NCBI GenBank assembly: GCA_965226495.1
Contig: OZ245365.1
Coordinates: forward strand, 1,568,001-1,632,000
Direction: 5' to 3'
DNA: 64,000 nucleotides
Source of the DNA: Candidatus Marinacidobacterales bacterium
Lineage (GTDB): Bacteria > Acidobacteriota > Vicinamibacteria > Marinacidobacterales > DATDRI01
Shown here: one piece after another, positions 2,960 through 51,866 of the stretch
Layout of the letters: every line of letters begins with the position of its first letter
How positions within the stretch are numbered: position 1 is the first letter of the stretch
The notes under the pieces: generated by a model
Told to the model about the DNA's origin: nothing
Database searches by the model: none
Seen by the model: only the letters and a program-made list of their open reading frames with translations
Made by a program: the position numbers and the translations under genes

Positions 2960-3570
2960 CTATGGCTTTTCGTCTGCTTCGGACCGCGCGGGGTGCGCTG
3001 TATTCAACGACGCCGTGCTGAGCGCCGTGTTGCTCCGACCACACTCCGTGTGGCATCGCATGAGAAGGCTTACCTTTTCGTACCTGCTATCGTTCCGGAA
3101 GGACAGTTGCTTCTTCGCCCGATGGCATCGCATGAGAAGGCTTACCTTTTCGTACCTGCTATCGTTCCGGAAGGACAGTTGCTTCTTCGCCCGCTCAAAA
3201 TCCAGCTCCGCTCTCCGGCTGTATAGATTGCCGTGGGATCGACGGCGAGACGGCCGATGAACGGGCTGTCGTCATCGGTTCGAACTCCCTCCACTCGCAG
3301 CTCAGTGACTTTCGGTAAGAGTCGCTTGAGGTCGGGATAATAGGTGAAGAGGAAGATCCGCTCGATGGGAAGATCCCCCACGCGTTGATCCTCGACGTAC
3401 AGGGTTGCCGCGGTAAGGTGCTCGCACACCCTGAGGGAAACGGGTATGTAGAGGCTCCGATTCAACAACTTGCCCTGCTCGGCTTTCACCGGGCCGTTAG
3501 AGACGAGCACCATCACCATCATCATCAGAAGCAAACCCGCTGCGCCGTAGCGTCCGATTCTCGTCTTCAT
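2960..3570 (-). CDS. Secreted hypothetical protein; frameshift near 3208 and in-frame 72-bp duplication
   Basis: Signal peptide MKTRIGRYGAAGLLLMMMVMVLVS; shifted frame continues ELDFERAKKQLSFRNDSRYEKVSLLMRCH (x2)...EKP* at 2960. Confidence 0.55.
3051..3192. repeat. Exact tandem duplication, period 72 bp
   Basis: 3051-3120 is identical to 3123-3192. Confidence 0.95.
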
Positions 3571-8285: not shown

Positions 8286-8384
8286 TAGCTCTTTTCCCGA
8301 TCGCCCATCCCTAATCGAGCCGAAAGCCGGGTCGGAGTGCGCTTCGAGGGGAGGCTTCTTCCCGTTTTTTTCGTCTCTTCGAAT

Positions 8385-9909
8385 GTGTTCGCGCGTACGG
8401 TAACCGGGGCGACTCGGGGCATCGAAGGACTCCTCGTGCGGGTGGAAGTCTACCTGAGTGACGGCGTTCCGTCGTTCCGCACGGTGGGACTACCCGACGC
8501 ATCGGTGCGGGAGGCGCGCGAAAGGGTTCGAGCCGCGCTCCGTACGAATGGTTTCGAATATCCGGCTGGGAGGATTACGCTCAGCCTCGCTCCAGCGGAG
8601 GTCCCCAAACAGGGCGCGGGATTCGACCTGGCGGTCGCTATCGGTCTGCTGGCGGCGCGGGACCACGTGCCCACTGACAGGCTGAGCAGCACGCTCTTGA
8701 TGGGCGAGCTGGCGCTCGACGGGACGCTTCGTCCAGTGAGAGGGGTACTTCCGGTGGCGGTCGAGGCTCGATCGGAAGGCGTTCGGATGGCGGTGGTTCC
8801 GCAAGCAAACGGAGTGGAGGCGGCCATGGTGGATGGTCTGGCAGTGTATTCGGTCGGTTCTCTCCGAGAGGCGGTAGATCTCTTGTCCGCGGAGAACCTT
8901 CCAGCGCCCCTGCCAACGAACAGGACCTATCTGTCGAGGCGGAAGCCGTTGCGCGACCTCGCGGACGTAAAGGCTCAGTACCAAGCAAAACGGGCTCTCG
9001 AGTTGGTCGCCGCCGGGGGTCACAACCTACTCTTCTATGGACCTCCCGGCGCGGGCAAGACGTTACTCGCACGTTGCCTGCCCTCGCTGCTGCCCCCGTT
9101 GAGCTTCGATGAAGCGATCGAGGTAACGAAGGTTCATTCCGTTGCCGGGAGACTGCCTCCTAGTGTCGGTTTGTTAACCGATCCGCCGTTTAGGGCCCCG
9201 CACCACACGATTTCTTGGGCGGCGATGGCCGGCGGAGGCATAGGGGCCGATGCCTGGCGAAGTAAGCTTGGCGCATCGAGGCGTCTTGTTCCTGGACGAG
9301 CTCGCCGAGTTTCCCCGTAACGCGCTCGAGGCGCTTCGCCAACCTTTGGAAGAAGGAAGCATTCTTGTGAGCCGCGTCGGTCGATCGGCTCGATTGCCTA
9401 CCGAGTTCGTTCTAGTTGCCGCGATGAATCCCTGTCCGTGCGGATACTCCGGAGCCGAGGCTCGTGGATGCATCTGCTCGCCCGCGGTTGTGAGTCGGTA
9501 CCAGTCGCGGGTCTCTGGGCCCTTGATCGATCGCATCGACCTGCAGGTCTACGTCCGCGCCTTGACCGGCGAGCAAATGCTCGCCTCGCCTTCATCCGAG
9601 CGAAGCTCGGTCGTACGCGACCGAGTGATGAGTGCCAGGGAGTTGCAGAAGGAACGCTTTGCCGGCTCCGGTCATCGTCTCAACGCTGCGATGTCGCCCC
9701 CGGAAGTGATGCGATTCTGCGAGTTGAGCCCCGCCGGAAAGGAATCCCTACGCCAAGCTGTGGATAGCTTGGGTCTTTCGGCGCGCGCGTTCGACCGGAT
9801 ACTCAAGGTGGCGCGAACGATGGCCGATTTGGACGGGGGGGGAAGCATCGAGGACGCACACCTTCACGAGGCCATCCAGTACCGTATCCTGGAGAGTCAG
9901 CAAGCGTAG
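8385..9909 (+). CDS. comM: ComM/YifB Mg-chelatase-like AAA+ ATPase; +1 G frameshift at 9243-9246
   Basis: VGLPDASVRE, GPPGAGKT, PFRAPHH in ORF 1; PGEVSLAHRGVLFLDE, NPCPCG, SGPLIDRID in ORF 2; GGGG run restores frame if GGG. Confidence 0.9.
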
Positions 9910-9928
9910 CAGGTGTTAGCATCTGCCA

Positions 9929-10026
9929 ATGTCGGACAAGAATGTCCTCGCCAAGGCATCAGACCTCTTCAACCGTAAGCTTTACTTCGAATGTCACGAC
10001 TTGCTTGAAGATGCATGGGCCGGTGC
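9929..10026 (+). pseudogene. Truncated 5' fragment of a DUF309 gene (allele A)
   Basis: MSDKNVLAKASDLFNRKLYFECHDLLEDAWAG, then runs into a repeat element. Confidence 0.75.
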
Positions 10027-10449
10027 GGGAGCCGTCAGCCGTCGCGCAGGTGCGCCGTCACCGGAGCGACAGGCATGGGGGTGGGGCCCCATGCCATTGA
10101 GAGATGCCGCCGCGAGCACCGGCGAGGCTTAGGGGTTGCGGTGGGTTTGAACGACGTTCTGGCGAAGGCGTCGGAGCTTTTCAACCGAAAGCTGTATTTC
10201 GAATGTCATGACATCCTAGAGGATGCTTGGGCCGGTGCGGGAGCCGTCAGCCGTCGCGCAGGTGCGCCGTCACCGGAGCGACAGGCATGGGGGTGGGGCC
10301 CCATGCCATTGAGAGATGCCGCCGCGAGCACCGGCGAGGCTTAGGGTTGCGGTGGGTTTGAACGACGTTCTGGCGAAGGCGTCGGAGCTTTTCAACCGAA
10401 AGCTGTATTTCGAATGTCATGACATCCTAGAGGATGCTTGGGCCGGTGC
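10019..10449. repeat. Tandem ~212-bp unit = repeat element + DUF309 5' end (allele B)
   Basis: GCCGGTGC at 10019, 10231, 10442; copies differ by one G in a homopolymer; hairpin GGCATGGGG-GTGGGG-CCCCATGCC at 10072-10095. Confidence 0.9.
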
Positions 10450-10717
10450 TCGCGGCCCGGAACGCGATTTCCTCCAAGCGTTGATACACATCGCCGTCGG
10501 CATGTACCACGTGGCGGGGGGAAACCAGAGAGGAGCGGTGAGTCAGCTCGAGCAAGGAGTGCGCGCACTCCAGCCGTTTCGCCCGGACCGCGAAGGACTC
10601 GATGTGGAGCGCCTCATCATCGGCGCCGCGCGGTGTCTCGAGAAGTTCGAGAACGATGCCTTCCCGGATTGGACCGCGGAGGACATTCCGAGGATGAATT
10701 ACCGCCGATTGGTGTAG
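10352..10717 (+). CDS. DUF309 domain protein
   Basis: LFNRKLYFECHDILEDAW...FLQALIHIAVGMYH...GN.RGA signature. Confidence 0.85.
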   Translation: MGLNDVLAKASELFNRKLYFECHDILEDAWAGARGPERDFLQALIHIAVGMYHVAGGNQRGAVSQLEQGVRALQPFRPDREGLDVERLIIGAARCLEKFENDAFPDWTAEDIPRMNYRRLV

Positions 10718-10778
10718 GATCGGCATTCCGCCCGGTTCGACGCCAGGCCCAGAATGTCCAAGAATAATTGAGACACCA

Positions 10779-12182
10779 ATGAAGAAGGCGTATGTCGTAG
10801 CACTGGTCCTCCTCGCCGGCCTGTTTCTATATCTGGATGTCGCCGTTCAGCGAGCCGATCGAAAGGCCGATCGAAACGATGTCGCGGCGGGGTCGGCGTA
10901 TAGGGTCATGATCCTCGGCTTCGATGGAACGGATCCCGAGTTTCTCCACTCCTTGATGTCGCAGGGCAAGCTGCCGAACTTCGAGCGGCTCCATCGGGAA
11001 GGAGCCTATGGCCCTTGCCGCACGTTCAAACCGACGAAGTCGAATGTGATTTGGACTTCCATAGCGACGGGCAAGCGAATGGAAAAACACGGCATCATCG
11101 ATTGGATGGTGCTCTCCGATGATGGCCAGGAAAGGCTTCTGACAACGGGAAACCAAAGGCGCACCGAGGCGCTATGGAATATTGCGACAGCAGCCGGGAA
11201 AAGCGTGCAACTGATCAACTGGTGGGCGACTTGGCCTGCGGAACACGTGAATGGTGAGATGGTCTCGAATCATTTCACAAAAACACGCAAGACTCGCATC
11301 GATGAAGCGACATATCCAGCGACTCTCAATGACGAGTTGGAACCACTCGCCGCCTTCGGAGACGCCGGAGTTCACGAGGAGATGCGTGCGGCGGGAATCC
11401 CGGTGTATTCGGACGAGCTCGCGGAGAGTGTCTTTCGTCCTTCCGAGAATTTCAGGAGGCGTTTCGAGGCGTCGGTAGAGCTATTCGCCGAGGATATGCT
11501 CGTCGAGAAAGTTGCGAGTCACCTCATGGAGACCCGCGGGCAAAGGGATCTCTTTGGAGTGATCTTCCGGAACGCGGACATTTTTACACACTTCCTGTGG
11601 CGATTCATCGATGTGCGCTTAGCCAAGCAAGTGTACGACCACCTCAACGAGGATAAGTTGCCGCTCACTTCAGAGATCGAGCAGGCGATGAACGAAGCCT
11701 ACGCCGCGGTCTTGCAGGCGGTGTACATTCATGAAGACCGCCGACTGGGGCGGCTGATGGCGATGGCCGGGCCGGACACGGTGGTGATCGTGGTTTCCGA
11801 TCATGGGTTTCAGTTCCGGAACTATGGCTTTTATCACTACGCTCTAGGTCCGCCGGGGGCGAGAGCGCCAGGAAGTGTGGAAACTTTGGCCCCCCCTGGG
11901 GTAATTTTCCTATGGGGTCCGCCGATCCGGGGCGGCACCAAGCTCACCCACGCGACGGTGTTCGATGTTTCGCCAACCGCCCTGTATCTTCTAGGGCTGC
12001 CGGTCGGGGAGGACATGGACGGGAGGGTTCTGGTCGAAGCCCTTGCCCCTGAACTACTTGCGGAAAGACCCGTCGAGTGGACTCCTACTCACGACAGCGG
12101 CATGCGGGGAGGAAAGCCTCGCCGAAGCCCCATCGACAAGGATATTTTGAAAGAACTGCAAACCCTCGGATACGTGTCTTGA
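10779..12182 (+). CDS. Alkaline phosphatase superfamily (NPP/sulfatase-like) exported protein
   Basis: ILGFDG, WTSIATG, VVSDHGF, C-terminal LQTLGYV. Confidence 0.85.
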   Translation: MKKAYVVALVLLAGLFLYLDVAVQRADRKADRNDVAAGSAYRVMILGFDGTDPEFLHSLMSQGKLPNFERLHREGAYGPCRTFKPTKSNVIWTSIATGKRMEKHGIIDWMVLSDDGQERLLTTGNQRRTEALWNIATAAGKSVQLINWWATWPAEHVNGEMVSNHFTKTRKTRIDEATYPATLNDELEPLAAFGDAGVHEEMRAAGIPVYSDELAESVFRPSENFRRRFEASVELFAEDMLVEKVASHLMETRGQRDLFGVIFRNADIFTHFLWRFIDVRLAKQVYDHLNEDKLPLTSEIEQAMNEAYAAVLQAVYIHEDRRLGRLMAMAGPDTVVIVVSDHGFQFRNYGFYHYALGPPGARAPGSVETLAPPGVIFLWGPPIRGGTKLTHATVFDVSPTALYLLGLPVGEDMDGRVLVEALAPELLAERPVEWTPTHDSGMRGGKPRRSPIDKDILKELQTLGYVS

Positions 12183-32696: not shown

Positions 32697-33000
32697 AACA
32701 GCCTTGAGCCAGCGCGAAGTCGCCGCCGGCCGCGGAGCCTTCAGCCGCCTCGTAGCCCGAGGTTGCGGAGAGGCTGGCGACGGGGGTGGGGTCCCCGTCG
32801 CATTGATAAGCGACGCTTGCCGAGCGGAGGCCAGGGGCCGAACGAAGAGTGAGGCCCCGAGTACTTGAGGTCGACGAAGCGCGACCCGTTGGGGGGTGTC
32901 CGCCTCCGCTCGCGTTGAGGATTGGCCTTCGCGAGCTTTGGCGAGACCGCGCCGTAGCCCGCAGGGTCCGGTTGTGGGCGTAGGCGGGGGGCCCCGACGG
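32697..33000 (-). repeat. Mosaic intergenic element
   Basis: Perfect hairpin GCGACGGGG-ACCCCAC-CCCCGTCGC (32777-32801), GCTGAAGGCTC, GGCTCAAGGCTGTTC (also at ~52189). Confidence 0.8.
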
Positions 33001-46939: not shown

Positions 46940-47330
46940 GCCCGCTAGTCGGCGCGCGCTGAGGGCTTTCATCAGTGGTCTGGGGCCCCACCCCCGCCGC
47001 TCGGCTCACTCCGGTCGAAGCAACCACGTATTTTGGCGGCCGGCAGGGCGCGTGGAGTCTCCTAGCAAGCGACTGCGCGCGGGCTGAGGGTTCGTCAATC
47101 ATCAATGGTCTGGGGCCCCACCCCCAGACCTCGCGCTCCGTCGGCAAGCGACTGCGCGCGGGCTGAGGGCTCGTCAATCATCAATGGTCTGGGGCCCCAC
47201 CCCCAGACCTCGCGCTCCGTCGGCAAGCGACTGCGCGCGGGCTGAGGGCTCGTCAATCATCAATGGTCTGGGGCCCCACCCCCAGACCTCGCGCTCCGTC
47301 GGCAAGCGACTGCGCGCGGGCTGAGGGCTC
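46940..47330 (+). repeat. Tandem array of three 79-bp element units plus one variant unit
   Basis: GGGCTGAGGG at 47081, 47160, 47239, 47318; each unit has CAAT-GGTCTGGGG-CCCCAC-CCCCAGACC. Confidence 0.95.
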
Positions 47331-51318: not shown

Positions 51319-51866
51319 GAGCCCTAACTGCGTTCCTCGCCTTCGCTTTCTCCGCCGCACCTGTTTTTTCCGAGGAGCCCTTGTTAGATCATCAACCCAT
51401 CGTTTGTTCGCTTCCCGGCAAGAACCCCCGAGTCCGAGGAGCCCTTGTTAGATCATCAACCCATCCCGGCAAGAACCCCCGAGTATGCGCGTACGTTGCC
51501 GATGACGGTGAAATAAAGAGAGTCCGCTCGTATTTCCGAGCCAGGGGCAAGGAATACTTCTATTGGAGCGAAATGGCGTTCGACGGCATCCAATACTGTG
51601 CGACCCTCCCGGTTGCCAAGAACAACGTGAAAGGCGTCGAGTACTACATCTGGGCCATCGACGATAGCTTCCAGTCTCGGCGAACCCGTACCCACAAGAT
51701 GTCTCTGGTCCCCGAGGTTCCCTGCGAGTATCCAGTCTTCGACGATGATCCGGAGCGAAGCTCCAACCTCGTCGTCAACGCCACCTCGCCCAAACAAGGC
51801 AACTCCATCTCCGACTTCAGCGAAAAGGGCATTGTCCGCTACGTGGCGGTAGGGCAGAAGGAGTAG
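51312..51866 (+). CDS. Secreted hypothetical protein with internal duplication
   Basis: Signal peptide; YFR...Y....M, VEYYI.A.D pattern; overlaps the kinase stop. Confidence 0.7.
   Translation: MVRALTAFLAFAFSAAPVFSEEPLLDHQPIVCSLPGKNPRVRGALVRSSTHPGKNPRVCAYVADDGEIKRVRSYFRARGKEYFYWSEMAFDGIQYCATLPVAKNNVKGVEYYIWAIDDSFQSRRTRTHKMSLVPEVPCEYPVFDDDPERSSNLVVNATSPKQGNSISDFSEKGIVRYVAVGQKE
51369..51484. repeat. Imperfect 64-bp tandem duplication (second copy lacks 13 bp)
   Basis: TCCGAGGAGCCCTTGTTAGATCATCAACCCAT and CCCGGCAAGAACCCCCGAGT each occur twice. Confidence 0.9.

What the first reader, a model, noticed from the sequence alone, without database searches (positions are those of the whole stretch)
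10019..10456. Element carries a 15-nt reverse complement of its own junction site
Seen: GCCGCGAGCACCGGC (10109-10123 and 10321-10335) is the exact reverse complement of the uninterrupted gene sequence GCCGGTGC|TCGCGGC (10442-10456), and the element is joined right after GCCGGTGC. The match spans both sides of the breakpoint (8+7 nt) and lies ~13 nt from the conserved hairpin. Inference: a base-pairing guide for target choice (conceptually like IS200/IS605 ssDNA guides or intron EBS/IBS). Alternatives are a fold-back/inversion scar, or an inverted repeat enclosing the start codon that sequesters or inverts it. I could not see an equivalent match at the other element copies.
Basis: partly seen in the sequence, partly recalled or inferred. 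Interest (0 to 1): 0.75.

Follow-up and report, generated by a model that had tools for sequence, protein, structure and literature searches.

The report
Repeat element insertion matching its target
A small hairpin repeat, carrying a foreign copy of a gene's first 33 codons, sits twice in tandem inside that gene, and 15 bases beside the repeat pair exactly with the insertion site; no other copy of the repeat shows this.

Summary
GCCGCGAGCACCGGC (10109-10123, 10321-10335) is the exact reverse complement of 10442-10456. No shuffle of the region gave a 15-nt inverted repeat (0 of 2000).

The native DUF309 gene is interrupted at GCCGGTGC|TCGCGGC by two tandem 212/211-nt units. Each unit holds:
- a ~78-nt two-hairpin REP-like element, one of 191 hairpin cores in this 6.3-Mb Vicinamibacteria genome;
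- about 36 nt of flank, which contains the 15-mer;
- the first 33 codons of a foreign DUF309 allele, ending in GCCGGTGC again.

Short-read contigs from four studies carry every junction.

The complementarity is not a family trait. None of the 104 other full elements, and none of the 189 other cores, shows it. Most of the 15-mer is family-type sequence, so it was probably not copied from the gene.

My best reading (confidence about 0.4) is a one-off read-through mobilisation. The element moved with its flank, cut at the next copy of its insertion motif, and inserted at the same motif in the resident gene. The pairing accidentally acted as an extended guide or splint. Template-switch or recombination scars remain a serious rival. 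A family-wide guide system is not supported.

The parts
9250..9909 (+). 3' part of the upstream comM/yifB-like gene (Mg_chelatase and Mg_chelatase_C domains). It is the native upstream neighbour, syntenic in G001, G002 and L065.
9929..10026 (+). A1: the native 5' end of the DUF309 gene (ATG at 9929, 33 codons). It ends in GCCGGTGC (10019-10026). It is now a truncated 67-aa ORF that stops at TAG 10130.
   Evidence: DUF309, E 1.6e-8. Its upstream region is like G002 and L065. 75 of 87 nt are identical to L065.
10027..10104 (+). X, copy 1: the two-hairpin REP-like element. P1 is 10041-10070, P2 is 10072-10095 with the conserved loop GGGGGTGGGGCCCC, and the AYTRA tail is 10096-10100.
10109..10123 (+). 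15-mer, copy 1: GCCGCGAGCACCGGC, the reverse complement of 10442-10456.
10124..10140 (+). Y, copy 1: a short leader with AGGGG before the GTG at 10141. It is not similar to the native upstream region.
10141..10238 (+). A2, copy 1: a foreign allele of the first 33 codons of DUF309, ending in GCCGGTGC.
   Evidence: 69 of 87 nt identical to A1, with 16 of 18 differences at codon position 3; 68 of 87 identical to L065..
10239..10316 (+). X, copy 2. It is identical to copy 1 over 106 nt (P2 at 10284-10307).
10321..10335 (+). 15-mer, copy 2.
10352..10717 (+). The intact DUF309 reading frame now in use: the A2 copy (GTG 10352 or TTG 10358) fused at 10449/10450 to the native remainder B.
   Evidence: (PF03745, E 2.7e-22). 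B is 246 of 267 nt identical to L065.
10442..10456 (+). The uninterrupted site GCCGGTGC|TCGCGGC. It forms the right arm of the 15-bp inverted repeat, and the right end of the tandem insertion falls at its centre.
   Evidence: The stem is predicted in both the MFE and the centroid structure, as RNA and as DNA.

Best explanation
The locus is a compound insertion, not a simple element with a built-in guide.

What is there. The native DUF309 gene (A1 + B) is interrupted after GCCGGTGC by two tandem copies of a 212-nt unit. Each unit consists of:
- a ~78-nt two-hairpin REP-like element (X);
- about 36 nt of non-coding flank, which contains the 15-mer and a start region;
- the first 33 codons of a DUF309 allele from another lineage (A2), ending again in GCCGGTGC.
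Because A2 is joined in frame to B, an intact gene is kept.

Most likely history.
1. In a related lineage, X lay just upstream of DUF309.
2. X was mobilised together with its 3' flank. The cut fell not at its normal 3' end but at the next copy of a sequence resembling its usual insertion motif. That motif is GCCGGCCG-like, and in the gene it reads GCCGGTGC.
3. The unit was inserted 3' of the same motif in the resident gene, without a target duplication.
4. This regenerates the target at the right end, which allows a second copy in tandem.

Role of the 15 nt. They are mostly family-type sequence that happens to be complementary to the gene. In single-stranded DNA they pair in cis with the unit's own 3' end (8 bp) and with the target's downstream half (7 bp). 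I propose that this pairing acted as an accidental extended guide or splint that fixed the breakpoint at its centre.

Shown: the anatomy; that the locus is real; that A2 is foreign; the family's conserved structure and strand; the motif preference; and that the pairing is unique.
Inferred: single-stranded mobilisation, read-through, the causal role of the pairing, and the enzyme.
For: Anatomy
- 212/211-nt units, with the 15-nt arms 100% complementary.

The locus is real
- Contigs of 4 runs from 4 studies carry A1-core|X (9700-10045), A2-core|X (10209-10257) and A2-core|B (10420-10800) with 0 differing letters.
- The unit contig lies at about 1.5-2.6 times the flank depth.

Native versus foreign
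- G001, G002, L065 and L066 all have one uninterrupted gene with an A1-type upstream region.
- A1+B with the insert removed aligns collinearly to L065 at 90.3% over 2352 nt.
- A2 differs from L065 at 19 of 87 positions, B at 21 of 267 (Fisher p 0.0008).
- 16 of 18 A1/A2 differences are at codon position 3 (p 1.7e-6).
- X is at most 88% identical to any other copy in this genome or in the 54 other genomes of the order.

Family structure
- 97.1% of cells are paired and 12 of 19 pairs show compensatory changes; slid controls give 31-48%.
- G.T wobbles number 15 against 4 A.C mismatches, so the folded strand is the GAGCC...ATTGA strand.

Insertion behaviour
- One filled/empty pair (G000 about 32733-32808 versus G002) shows insertion right after GCCGGCCG(C) with no duplication.
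- CGGCCG lies at the left end in 12 of 106 elements, the 2 here not among them, against 0.78 expected.
- 98 of 191 cores have a same-strand neighbour within 250 nt; 0 have an opposite-strand neighbour.

The 15-mer is family-type
- GCGAGCAC occurs within 60 nt downstream of 7 of 191 cores, including the 2 here, against 0.45 expected.
- A copy in G008/G022 (another family, at a locus unrelated to DUF309) reads ATTGAAAGATGACGCCAGCGAGCACC. The sequence here reads ATTGAGAGATGCCGCCGCGAGCACC.

Chance is excluded: 0 of 2000 shuffles.

Precedent for the geometry
- IS608 was engineered with 8-13 nt of extra complementarity placed 3' of its left-end hairpin. It then selects 12- and 17-nt targets (PMC5934647; abstract and section 13 read).
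Against: - The complementarity is unique. None of the 104 other full elements and none of the 189 other cores shows it. The one long match among 84 cores in relatives is an ordinary local stem-loop.
- No transposase is linked to the family. The RAYT-like gene scores 72.4 bits, below its cut-off of 80, and is flanked by different 47-nt inverted repeats. No hairpin core lies within 6 kb of either Y1 gene. No core lies within 5.8 kb of any of the 10 IS91-type (Y2_Tnp) matches.
- No donor arrangement was found: not in 55 genomes of the order, nor in 41 metagenome loci.
- The model still needs the complementary flank to have lain upstream of the donor's own DUF309. That is itself a coincidence unless it arose by local correction.
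- The motif at the gene matches the usual left flank at only 6 of 8 positions.
- Only one filled/empty pair supports the claims of 'no target duplication' and of the normal 3' end.
- No excised, circular or empty form was seen, though contigs drop rare forms.
Confidence: 0.4

Rival explanations
1. A scar without function. DNA from a related lineage, carrying X-flank-A2-B', entered the cell. It was fixed by homologous recombination on one side and by an illegitimate, microhomology-based join on the other (homology-facilitated illegitimate recombination; recalled, not read). Alternatively, a tandem duplication arose by template switching at a stalled fork. The 15-bp inverted repeat would then be a short chance complementarity between a family module and the gene, perfected by quasi-palindrome template-switch correction (recalled). 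The second unit arose by unequal crossing-over between the 11-nt or 100-nt direct repeats.
For: - The feature is unique to one locus.
- A2, Y and X all look foreign, so gene transfer is needed in any model.
- Tandem arrays with many different unit lengths (36-214 nt) are common in this genome. This shows that local duplication is frequent.
- The 8-mer GCGAGCAC is a common family module. A chance complement to a nearby gene, in one of about 190 copies, is therefore not absurd.
- No linked transposase was found.
Against: - The join on the element side falls exactly at the family's 5' terminus and at a sequence resembling its usual left flank. A random illegitimate join does not predict that.
- The breakpoint sits at the centre of the 15-bp match, which this model leaves unexplained.
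- 12-13 of the 15 nt are shared with a copy in G008/G022. At most 3 nt would therefore remain to be 'corrected', so the pre-existing chance match would already have been about 12 nt.
Confidence: 0.27
2. A regulatory structure. The 15-bp stem is a long-range leader-to-coding pairing that encloses the start region (GTG 10352) and the first 30 codons in a 106-nt loop. It would tune translation or mRNA stability of DUF309. Alternatively, the two arms are the inverted repeats of an invertible switch.
For: - The stem appears in both the minimum-energy and the centroid structure, as RNA and as DNA.
- The arms flank the start codon.
Against: - G001, G002, L065 and L066 have no such upstream complement.
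- This reading does not explain why the tandem junction lies in the middle of the arm, nor the duplicated 5' end.
- The fold z-scores are modest, at -1.65 and -2.19.
- No inverted joint was seen in contigs of 4 runs.
- No recombinase gene lies among the neighbours within about 2 kb.
- No promoter-like site was found in 9800-10800.
Confidence: 0.1
3. The repeat family is a programmable mobile element. Each copy would carry, 3' of the hairpin, a guide complementary to its own target site.
For: - The match at this locus.
- The family's IS200/IS605-like traits: a strand-specific hairpin structure, insertion next to a motif, and no target duplication in the one pair examined.
Against: - 0 of 104 other full elements and 0 of 189 other cores show it.
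- 83 of 84 cores in relatives show nothing, and the one exception is a local stem-loop.
- The distributions equal the permutation controls.
Confidence: 0.04
4. An assembly artefact: a mis-assembled tandem from mixed strains or from long-read errors.
For: - The genome is probably a long-read assembly.
- A nearby gene is frameshifted at a G-run.
- The two units differ by one G in a G-run. That difference is not confirmed: the short-read contigs listed show the 223-nt form in X1 and X2 and the 222-nt form in X3 and X7.
Against: Every junction is present without differences in short-read contigs of 4 runs from 4 studies. The unit lies at roughly twice the flank depth. 20 runs from 8 studies hold the stretch.
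Confidence: 0.02

Closest known systems
REP / REPIN elements mobilised by RAYT transposases
   Same: - A short G+C-rich hairpin with a conserved short tag at one end (here AYTRA 3' of the hairpin).
- More than 100 copies.
- Often clustered, with segments of flanking DNA reiterated along with the repeat. PMC3733652 (passages read) describes such clusters.
- Occasional insertion inside genes, as with the Rickettsia RPEs mentioned in the same passages.
   Different: - The tag is neither GTAG nor CGTC.
- The element has two hairpins (~78 nt).
- 0 of 191 cores form inverted doublets, so there are no REPINs.
- The only RAYT-like gene is below its cut-off and is flanked by a different repeat.
IS200/IS605 (IS608) single-strand transposition with DNA guides, including engineered extended guides (Morero et al. 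2018, PMC5934647)
   Same: - A hairpin near the end of the element.
- Insertion 3' of a specific sequence, without a target duplication.
- Target read by pairing with element DNA. In the engineered form, 8-13 nt placed 3' of the left-end hairpin pair with the target upstream of the cut. Here 8 nt placed 3' of the hairpin pair with the target upstream of the junction.
   Different: - No second (right-end) hairpin and no linked TnpA.
- The pairing also covers 7 nt downstream of the cut.
- It occurs at one locus only.
- The mobilised unit includes 134 nt of flank and gene.
IS91-type rolling-circle, one-ended transposition (recalled from memory; no paper read)
   Same: As I recall, when the terminating end is missed, the transferred DNA ends at a copy of the target sequence in the donor flank, and tandem multimers arise. 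Here the unit ends in the same 8-11 nt as the target and is present twice in tandem. The Y2_Tnp family gives 10 matches in this genome, 4 of them near full profile length without stops.
   Different: - The target is not GTTC/CTTG.
- No family copy lies within 5.8 kb of a Y2 gene.
- No ori/ter ends were recognised.
Quasi-palindrome correction and template-switch duplications (recalled; no paper read)
   Same: A perfect inverted repeat close to a tandem-duplication junction in hairpin-rich DNA.
   Different: Most of the 15-mer pre-exists in family copies elsewhere. The join uses the exact terminus of the element.
Integrative elements that carry a replacement end of their target gene (for example islands in tRNA genes; general knowledge)
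   Same: The insertion brings its own copy of the displaced gene end, so the gene stays intact. The displaced native end remains as a fragment.
   Different: - It replaces the 5' end rather than the 3' end.
- The unit is only 212 nt.
- There is no integrase.
- The identity block is 11 nt.

Membership tests
REP/REPIN-RAYT | High-copy, short, G+C-rich imperfect palindrome | tested here: met
   141 exact and 191 one-mismatch hairpin cores in G000, against 0 for the control pattern. Covariation supports the stems.
REP/REPIN-RAYT | GTAG or CGTC tetranucleotide at one end | tested here: not met
   The conserved tail is ATTGA/ACTGA/ATTAA. The definition is taken from passages of PMC3733652.
REP/REPIN-RAYT | Inverted doublets (REPINs) | tested here: not met
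   0 of 191 cores have an opposite-strand neighbour within 250 nt. 98 have a same-strand neighbour.
REP/REPIN-RAYT | A cognate RAYT gene flanked by the repeat | tested here: not met
   NF047646 scores 72.4 bits, below its cut-off of 80. The gene is flanked by unrelated 47-nt inverted repeats. No core lies within 6 kb.
IS200/IS605-type DNA-guided single-strand elements | Insertion 3' of a specific short sequence, without target duplication | tested here: inconclusive
   One filled/empty pair fits. CGGCCG lies at the left end in 12 of 106 elements against 0.78 expected. Other subfamilies have other left flanks.
IS200/IS605-type DNA-guided single-strand elements | Cleavage or target site paired with a guide inside the element | tested here: inconclusive
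   For 6 nt or more: met only at this locus (15 nt), and in 0 of 104 and 0 of 189 other copies. Guides of 4 nt could not be tested.
IS200/IS605-type DNA-guided single-strand elements | Hairpins at both ends and a Y1 transposase that acts on them | tested here: not met
   There is a single type of end. Two Y1_Tnp genes exist, but neither is near a copy.
IS91 rolling-circle elements | A Y2 HUH transposase linked to the ends, and a GTTC/CTTG target | tested here: not met
   Y2 matches are present, but the nearest core is 5.8 kb or more away. The target here is GCCGGTGC.
Group I / group II introns (IGS or EBS-IBS pairing) | A catalytic RNA core recognisable by covariance models | tested here: not met
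   No Rfam match better than E 7.7 in 9800-10800. The repeated letters at both boundaries cannot give both a U-ending 5' exon and a G-ending intron (read from the sequence).
Invertible DNA switches | Both orientations present in a population, with an invertase nearby | tested here: inconclusive
   No joint was found in contigs of 4 runs, but contigs drop rare forms. No recombinase lies among the neighbouring genes.

The most novel reading that the evidence does not exclude
This would be a natural single-stranded mobile unit that uses a long (15-nt) DNA guide placed 3' of its hairpin. The guide would pair with the unit's own 3' end in cis and with the target in trans. It would therefore set both where the unit is cut out and where it goes in. 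The unit also carries a replacement 5' end, so the hit gene survives. This would be the natural counterpart of engineered long-guide IS608. It would also show how a REP-like repeat can turn adjacent gene sequence into part of a new, gene-specific mobile element.
Probability: 0.15. Interest if true: 0.85.

Novelty: new variant of a known kind. Interest (0 to 1): 0.5.

Why it matters
If the pairing really fixed the breakpoint, this is a natural example of long DNA-guided target choice by a tiny non-autonomous element. So far that has been shown only by engineering IS608. It would also give a concrete route by which REP-like repeats capture flanking gene sequence and move it between lineages.

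Even if it is only a scar, the locus has value. It documents a gene whose first 33 codons were replaced by a foreign allele through a 212-nt unit. It also defines a new two-hairpin repeat family that clusters strictly head-to-tail and occurs in multiple copies in two families of an Acidobacteriota order (Vicinamibacteria). The mobilising enzyme of that family is unknown.

Tried and rejected
Checks that led nowhere or were rejected
- Rfam scan of 9800-10800: nothing better than E 7.7.
- Group I and group II intron readings: rejected (see Membership tests).
- Assembly artefact: rejected.
- Inversion between 10335 and 10442, and an empty A1-B form: no joint in contigs of 4 runs. Contigs cannot show rare forms.
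- Expression: no RNA holder listed.
- Donor lineage for X-15-mer-Y-A2: not found in 55 genomes of the order, in 41 metagenome loci or in 22 genome-contig loci.
- Other loci where an element is flanked by diverged direct copies of non-element sequence: none among the 191 cores. Every direct-repeat hit I inspected was an element array.
- IS110 / bridge-RNA idea: no DEDD_Tnp_IS110 match in the genome. A contiguous reverse complement is also not the bridge-RNA layout as I recall it.
- Promoter and terminator scan of 9800-10800: 0 sites.
- Apparent shared 'TGAAC' join with G003: rejected, because the codon register differs by 1 nt (read).
- Pattern search: it was mis-specified by one base relative to the window copy, which has a 1-nt gap. 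It therefore missed the window's own copies, and only G008 and G022 matched exactly. I use it only for those two.
- Supplementary files of papers were not consulted.
- G007 is unpublished. Its counts appear in the outputs, and a locus (L157) was fetched but not read. No claim here rests on it.
Full report
**1. What the sequence shows**

The window is G000:C1:1568001-1632000 of a closed 6,337,479-bp genome. Its relatives are titled Vicinamibacteria / 'Candidatus Marinacidobacterales', Acidobacteriota.

Between a comM/yifB-like gene (9250-9909) and a phosphodiesterase gene (10779-12182) lies a DUF309 gene. Its 5' end occurs three times:
- 9921-10026, which is 70% identical to the reference copy;
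- 10133-10238;
- 10344-10449, which is 100% identical to the second copy.

The repeat unit is 212/211 nt.

GCCGCGAGCACCGGC at 10109-10123 and 10321-10335 is 100% complementary to 10442-10456. GCCGGTGC at 10019-10026 and 10231-10238 is followed directly by GGGAGCC, the first bases of a repeat element. In 2000 dinucleotide-preserving shuffles of 10239-10717, none had an exact inverted repeat of 15 nt, and the maximum was 14 nt, reached in 2 shuffles.

**2. The repeat element**

A search with 10027-10132 finds 72 BLAST matches in the genome. All share the left boundary at 10027-10029, and most end about 74-80 nt in.

- The loop GGGGGTGGGGCCCC occurs 141 times exactly and 191 times with up to one mismatch.
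- 106 of these are full elements with the left arm at the standard distance.
- In an alignment of 31 distinct copies (31 of the 106, those lying in loci L002-L030), the two-hairpin structure is paired in 97.1% of cells. Compensatory changes occur in 12 of 19 pairs. Slid controls give 31-48%.
- G.T wobbles outnumber A.C mismatches 15 to 4. The strand that folds is therefore the one reading GAGCC...hairpins...ATTGA, which is the gene's sense strand at this locus.
- The loop is multi-copy in many genomes of two families of the order, for example 50 copies in G002, 51 in G032 and 50 in G028. It is absent or at chance level (0-2 copies) in the third family.
- There is no Rfam match.
- Copies cluster strictly head-to-tail. 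98 of 191 cores have a same-strand neighbour within 250 nt and none has an opposite-strand neighbour. Array periods range from 36 to 214 nt.

**3. Native and foreign parts**

G001 and G002 (same genus) and the metagenome contigs L065 and L066 each have one uninterrupted gene. Its upstream region matches that of the first copy, A1.

- With the 423-nt insert left out, the locus aligns collinearly to L065 at 90.3% over 2352 nt.
- A1 is 75 of 87 nt identical to L065. The repeated copy A2 is 68 of 87 identical. The rest of the gene (B) is 246 of 267 identical.
- A2 is significantly more diverged than B (Fisher p 0.0008). A1 is not (p 0.13).
- A1 and A2 differ at 18 of 87 positions, 16 of them at codon position 3 (p 1.7e-6). 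Both therefore evolved as coding sequence, in different lineages.
- The element copy X at this locus is identical in both units, but it is at most 88% identical to any other copy in this genome or in the order.
- No relative shows the leader Y or the 15-mer.

So A1 + B is the resident gene, and [X-15-mer-Y-A2] x 2 is an imported insert.

**4. The locus is real**

Twenty runs from 8 studies hold the stretch. In contigs of 4 runs from 4 studies, every junction is present with no differing letters:
- 9700-10045 (A1-core|X);
- 10209-10257 (A2-core|X);
- 10420-10800 (A2-core|B).

The unit contig lies at 12.6-18.7 depth, against 4.9-11 for the flanks. No skipping or strand-changing joint was reported.

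The listed unit contig is the 223-nt form in X1 and X2 and the 222-nt form in X3 and X7. The one-G difference between the two units in the assembly is therefore unconfirmed. I draw nothing from the ATG at 10316 being in frame.

**5. Is the complementarity a family trait?**

No.
- Among the 106 full elements, only the two here have 8 nt or more of the abutting left flank repeated as reverse complement in the 70 nt after the hairpin. The rest follow the permutation control.
- Among all 191 cores, only these two exceed 13 nt of complementarity between the 46 nt after the hairpin and the surrounding +-400 nt. The others, up to 13 nt, are explained by neighbouring repeats and match the control.
- In 84 cores from G002, G032 and G028 (84 of the 90 loci fetched had full flanks), one shows 15 bp. 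It is a local stem-loop with a 19-nt loop at a gene start, with no duplication.

**6. Where the 15-mer comes from**

The canonical element ends about 9 nt after the second hairpin. This rests on one filled/empty pair: window about 32733-32808 is present in G000 and absent in G002. The 15-mer therefore lies in the flank.

That flank is nonetheless family-type sequence.
- GCGAGCAC occurs within 60 nt after 7 of 191 cores (0.45 expected), and CGCGAGC after 30 of 191 (2.5 expected).
- Four G000 copies share GAGAGAT..CCGCGAGC.
- A copy in G008/G022, in another family and at a locus unrelated to DUF309, reads ATTGAAAGATGACGCCAGCGAGCACC. The sequence here reads ATTGAGAGATGCCGCCGCGAGCACC.

So about 12 of the 15 nt were probably there before the element met this gene. 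That argues against the 15-mer being an inverted copy templated from the gene.

**7. How the element side of the join looks**

In the one filled/empty pair, the element sits right after GCCGGCCG(C), with no duplication beyond a 1-nt ambiguity. CGGCCG lies at the left end in 12 of 106 elements (the two here are not among them; 10 belong to the GAG/GGG/CGG-AGCC subfamily to which X belongs), against 0.78 expected. The gene offers GCCGGTGC, which matches at 6 of 8 positions. The join A-GCCGGTGC|X thus looks like a normal family insertion, whereas the right end of the inserted DNA is not the element's normal end. It is a second GCCGGTGC inside the carried gene fragment.

**8. Mechanism**

The simplest account that uses all of this is as follows. 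The element moved together with its 3' flank. It was cut at the next target-like motif and inserted 3' of the same motif in the resident gene. That regenerates the target and permits a second, tandem copy.

This resembles one-ended events of HUH-type elements. For IS91 I rely on memory. For IS608 I read the abstract and section 13 of PMC5934647. There, 8-13 nt placed 3' of the left-end hairpin pair with the target upstream of the cut and give 12- and 17-nt specificity.

Here the 3' 8 nt of the 15-mer pair with GCCGGTGC, which is both the unit's own 3' end and the upstream half of the target. The 5' 7 nt pair with TCGCGGC, the downstream half. Both RNA and DNA folds put this 15-bp stem in the minimum-energy and the centroid structure.

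I therefore propose an accidental extended guide or splint, at confidence about 0.4.

What is inferred: the single-stranded form, the read-through, the causal role of the pairing, and the enzyme.

Candidate enzymes exist but are unlinked:
- two Y1 genes, one of them RAYT-like but below its cut-off and flanked by a different repeat;
- IS91-type Y2 genes that are not near any copy;
- no IS110.

**9. Rivals**

- A functionless scar, from gene transfer plus illegitimate recombination or template switching, with quasi-palindrome perfection of a chance match, remains serious (0.27). It fits the uniqueness and the lack of an enzyme. It does not explain the exact element terminus, the motif, or the centring of the breakpoint.
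- A regulatory stem or invertible switch (0.1) is not conserved in relatives and does not explain the junction.
- The family-wide guide (0.04) and an assembly artefact (0.02) are close to excluded.

**10. Comparison and novelty**

The family works like REP-type repeats and like IS200/IS605-type single-strand elements. It fails membership tests for both:
- it has no GTAG or CGTC tag;
- it forms no inverted doublets;
- it has no cognate RAYT;
- it has no second end.

The locus is best filed as a new variant of a known kind: a REP-like element with a transduced flank, a replacement gene end, and a one-off long complementarity to its target.

Supplements of papers were not seen.

Noticed in passing
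window 8337-9909 (G-run near 9241-9247): The comM/yifB-like gene is split into two overlapping ORFs in different frames (8337-9320 and 9250-9909). Removing one base of the GGGGCC run would give a continuous ...GGGIGPMPGEVSLAH... reading. This is either a true frameshift in a gene family linked to natural transformation, or a homopolymer assembly error.
   Followed up: partly
whole genome G000 (e.g. window 47065-47330): The hairpin repeats cluster only head-to-tail. 98 of 191 cores have a same-strand neighbour within 250 nt and none has an opposite-strand neighbour. Array periods run from 36 to 214 nt, and some units include other modules nested in a hairpin loop (G000:C1:6207560-6208100).
   Followed up: partly
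window about 32733-32808: An element copy is present in G000 and absent at the orthologous place in G002. It is nested inside another repeat module, right after GCCGGCCG(C), with no target duplication.
   Followed up: partly
L035 (G003), reverse strand about 1440-1500: In another genus, a copy of the same subfamily with its first hairpin deleted lies directly upstream of DUF309. The gene's ATG falls in the element's tail (GAGTGATGCC). Two further copies lie just upstream.
   Followed up: partly
L051 874-920 and 1936-1982 (G000:C1 about 1,859.6-1,860.7 kb): A 279-aa RAYT-like gene (NF047646, 72.4 bits, below its cut-off of 80) is flanked by its own 47-nt inverted repeats built on GGGTCTGATCC. 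This is a different repeat family.
   Followed up: partly
G000:C1 30074, 1370593, 1915123, 3797404 and others: Ten matches to the IS91-type Y2 transposase family, four of them near full length without stops. None lies near the hairpin repeats.
   Followed up: partly
L246 (G032), reverse strand about 1540-1590: A perfect 15-bp stem with a 19-nt loop lies about 20 nt after a repeat copy, at the start of the downstream ORF (frame-0 translation).
   Followed up: partly
window 10132-10135 versus 10344-10346: The two units differ by one G in a G-run. The short-read contigs listed show the 223-nt form in runs X1 and X2 and the 222-nt form in X3 and X7. The difference may lie between populations or may be an assembly error.
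   Followed up: partly
window 3051-3193 and 51369-51465: A perfect tandem duplication of 71 nt with a 72-nt period at 3051-3193, and a perfect 33-nt direct repeat spaced 64 nt at 51369/51433. Both are unrelated to the hairpin family.
   Followed up: no
run X7, window 10397-10517: A second contig with 10 differing letters carries an uninterrupted gene that resembles the G001 sequence. A relative without the insertion therefore coexists in that sample.
   Followed up: partly
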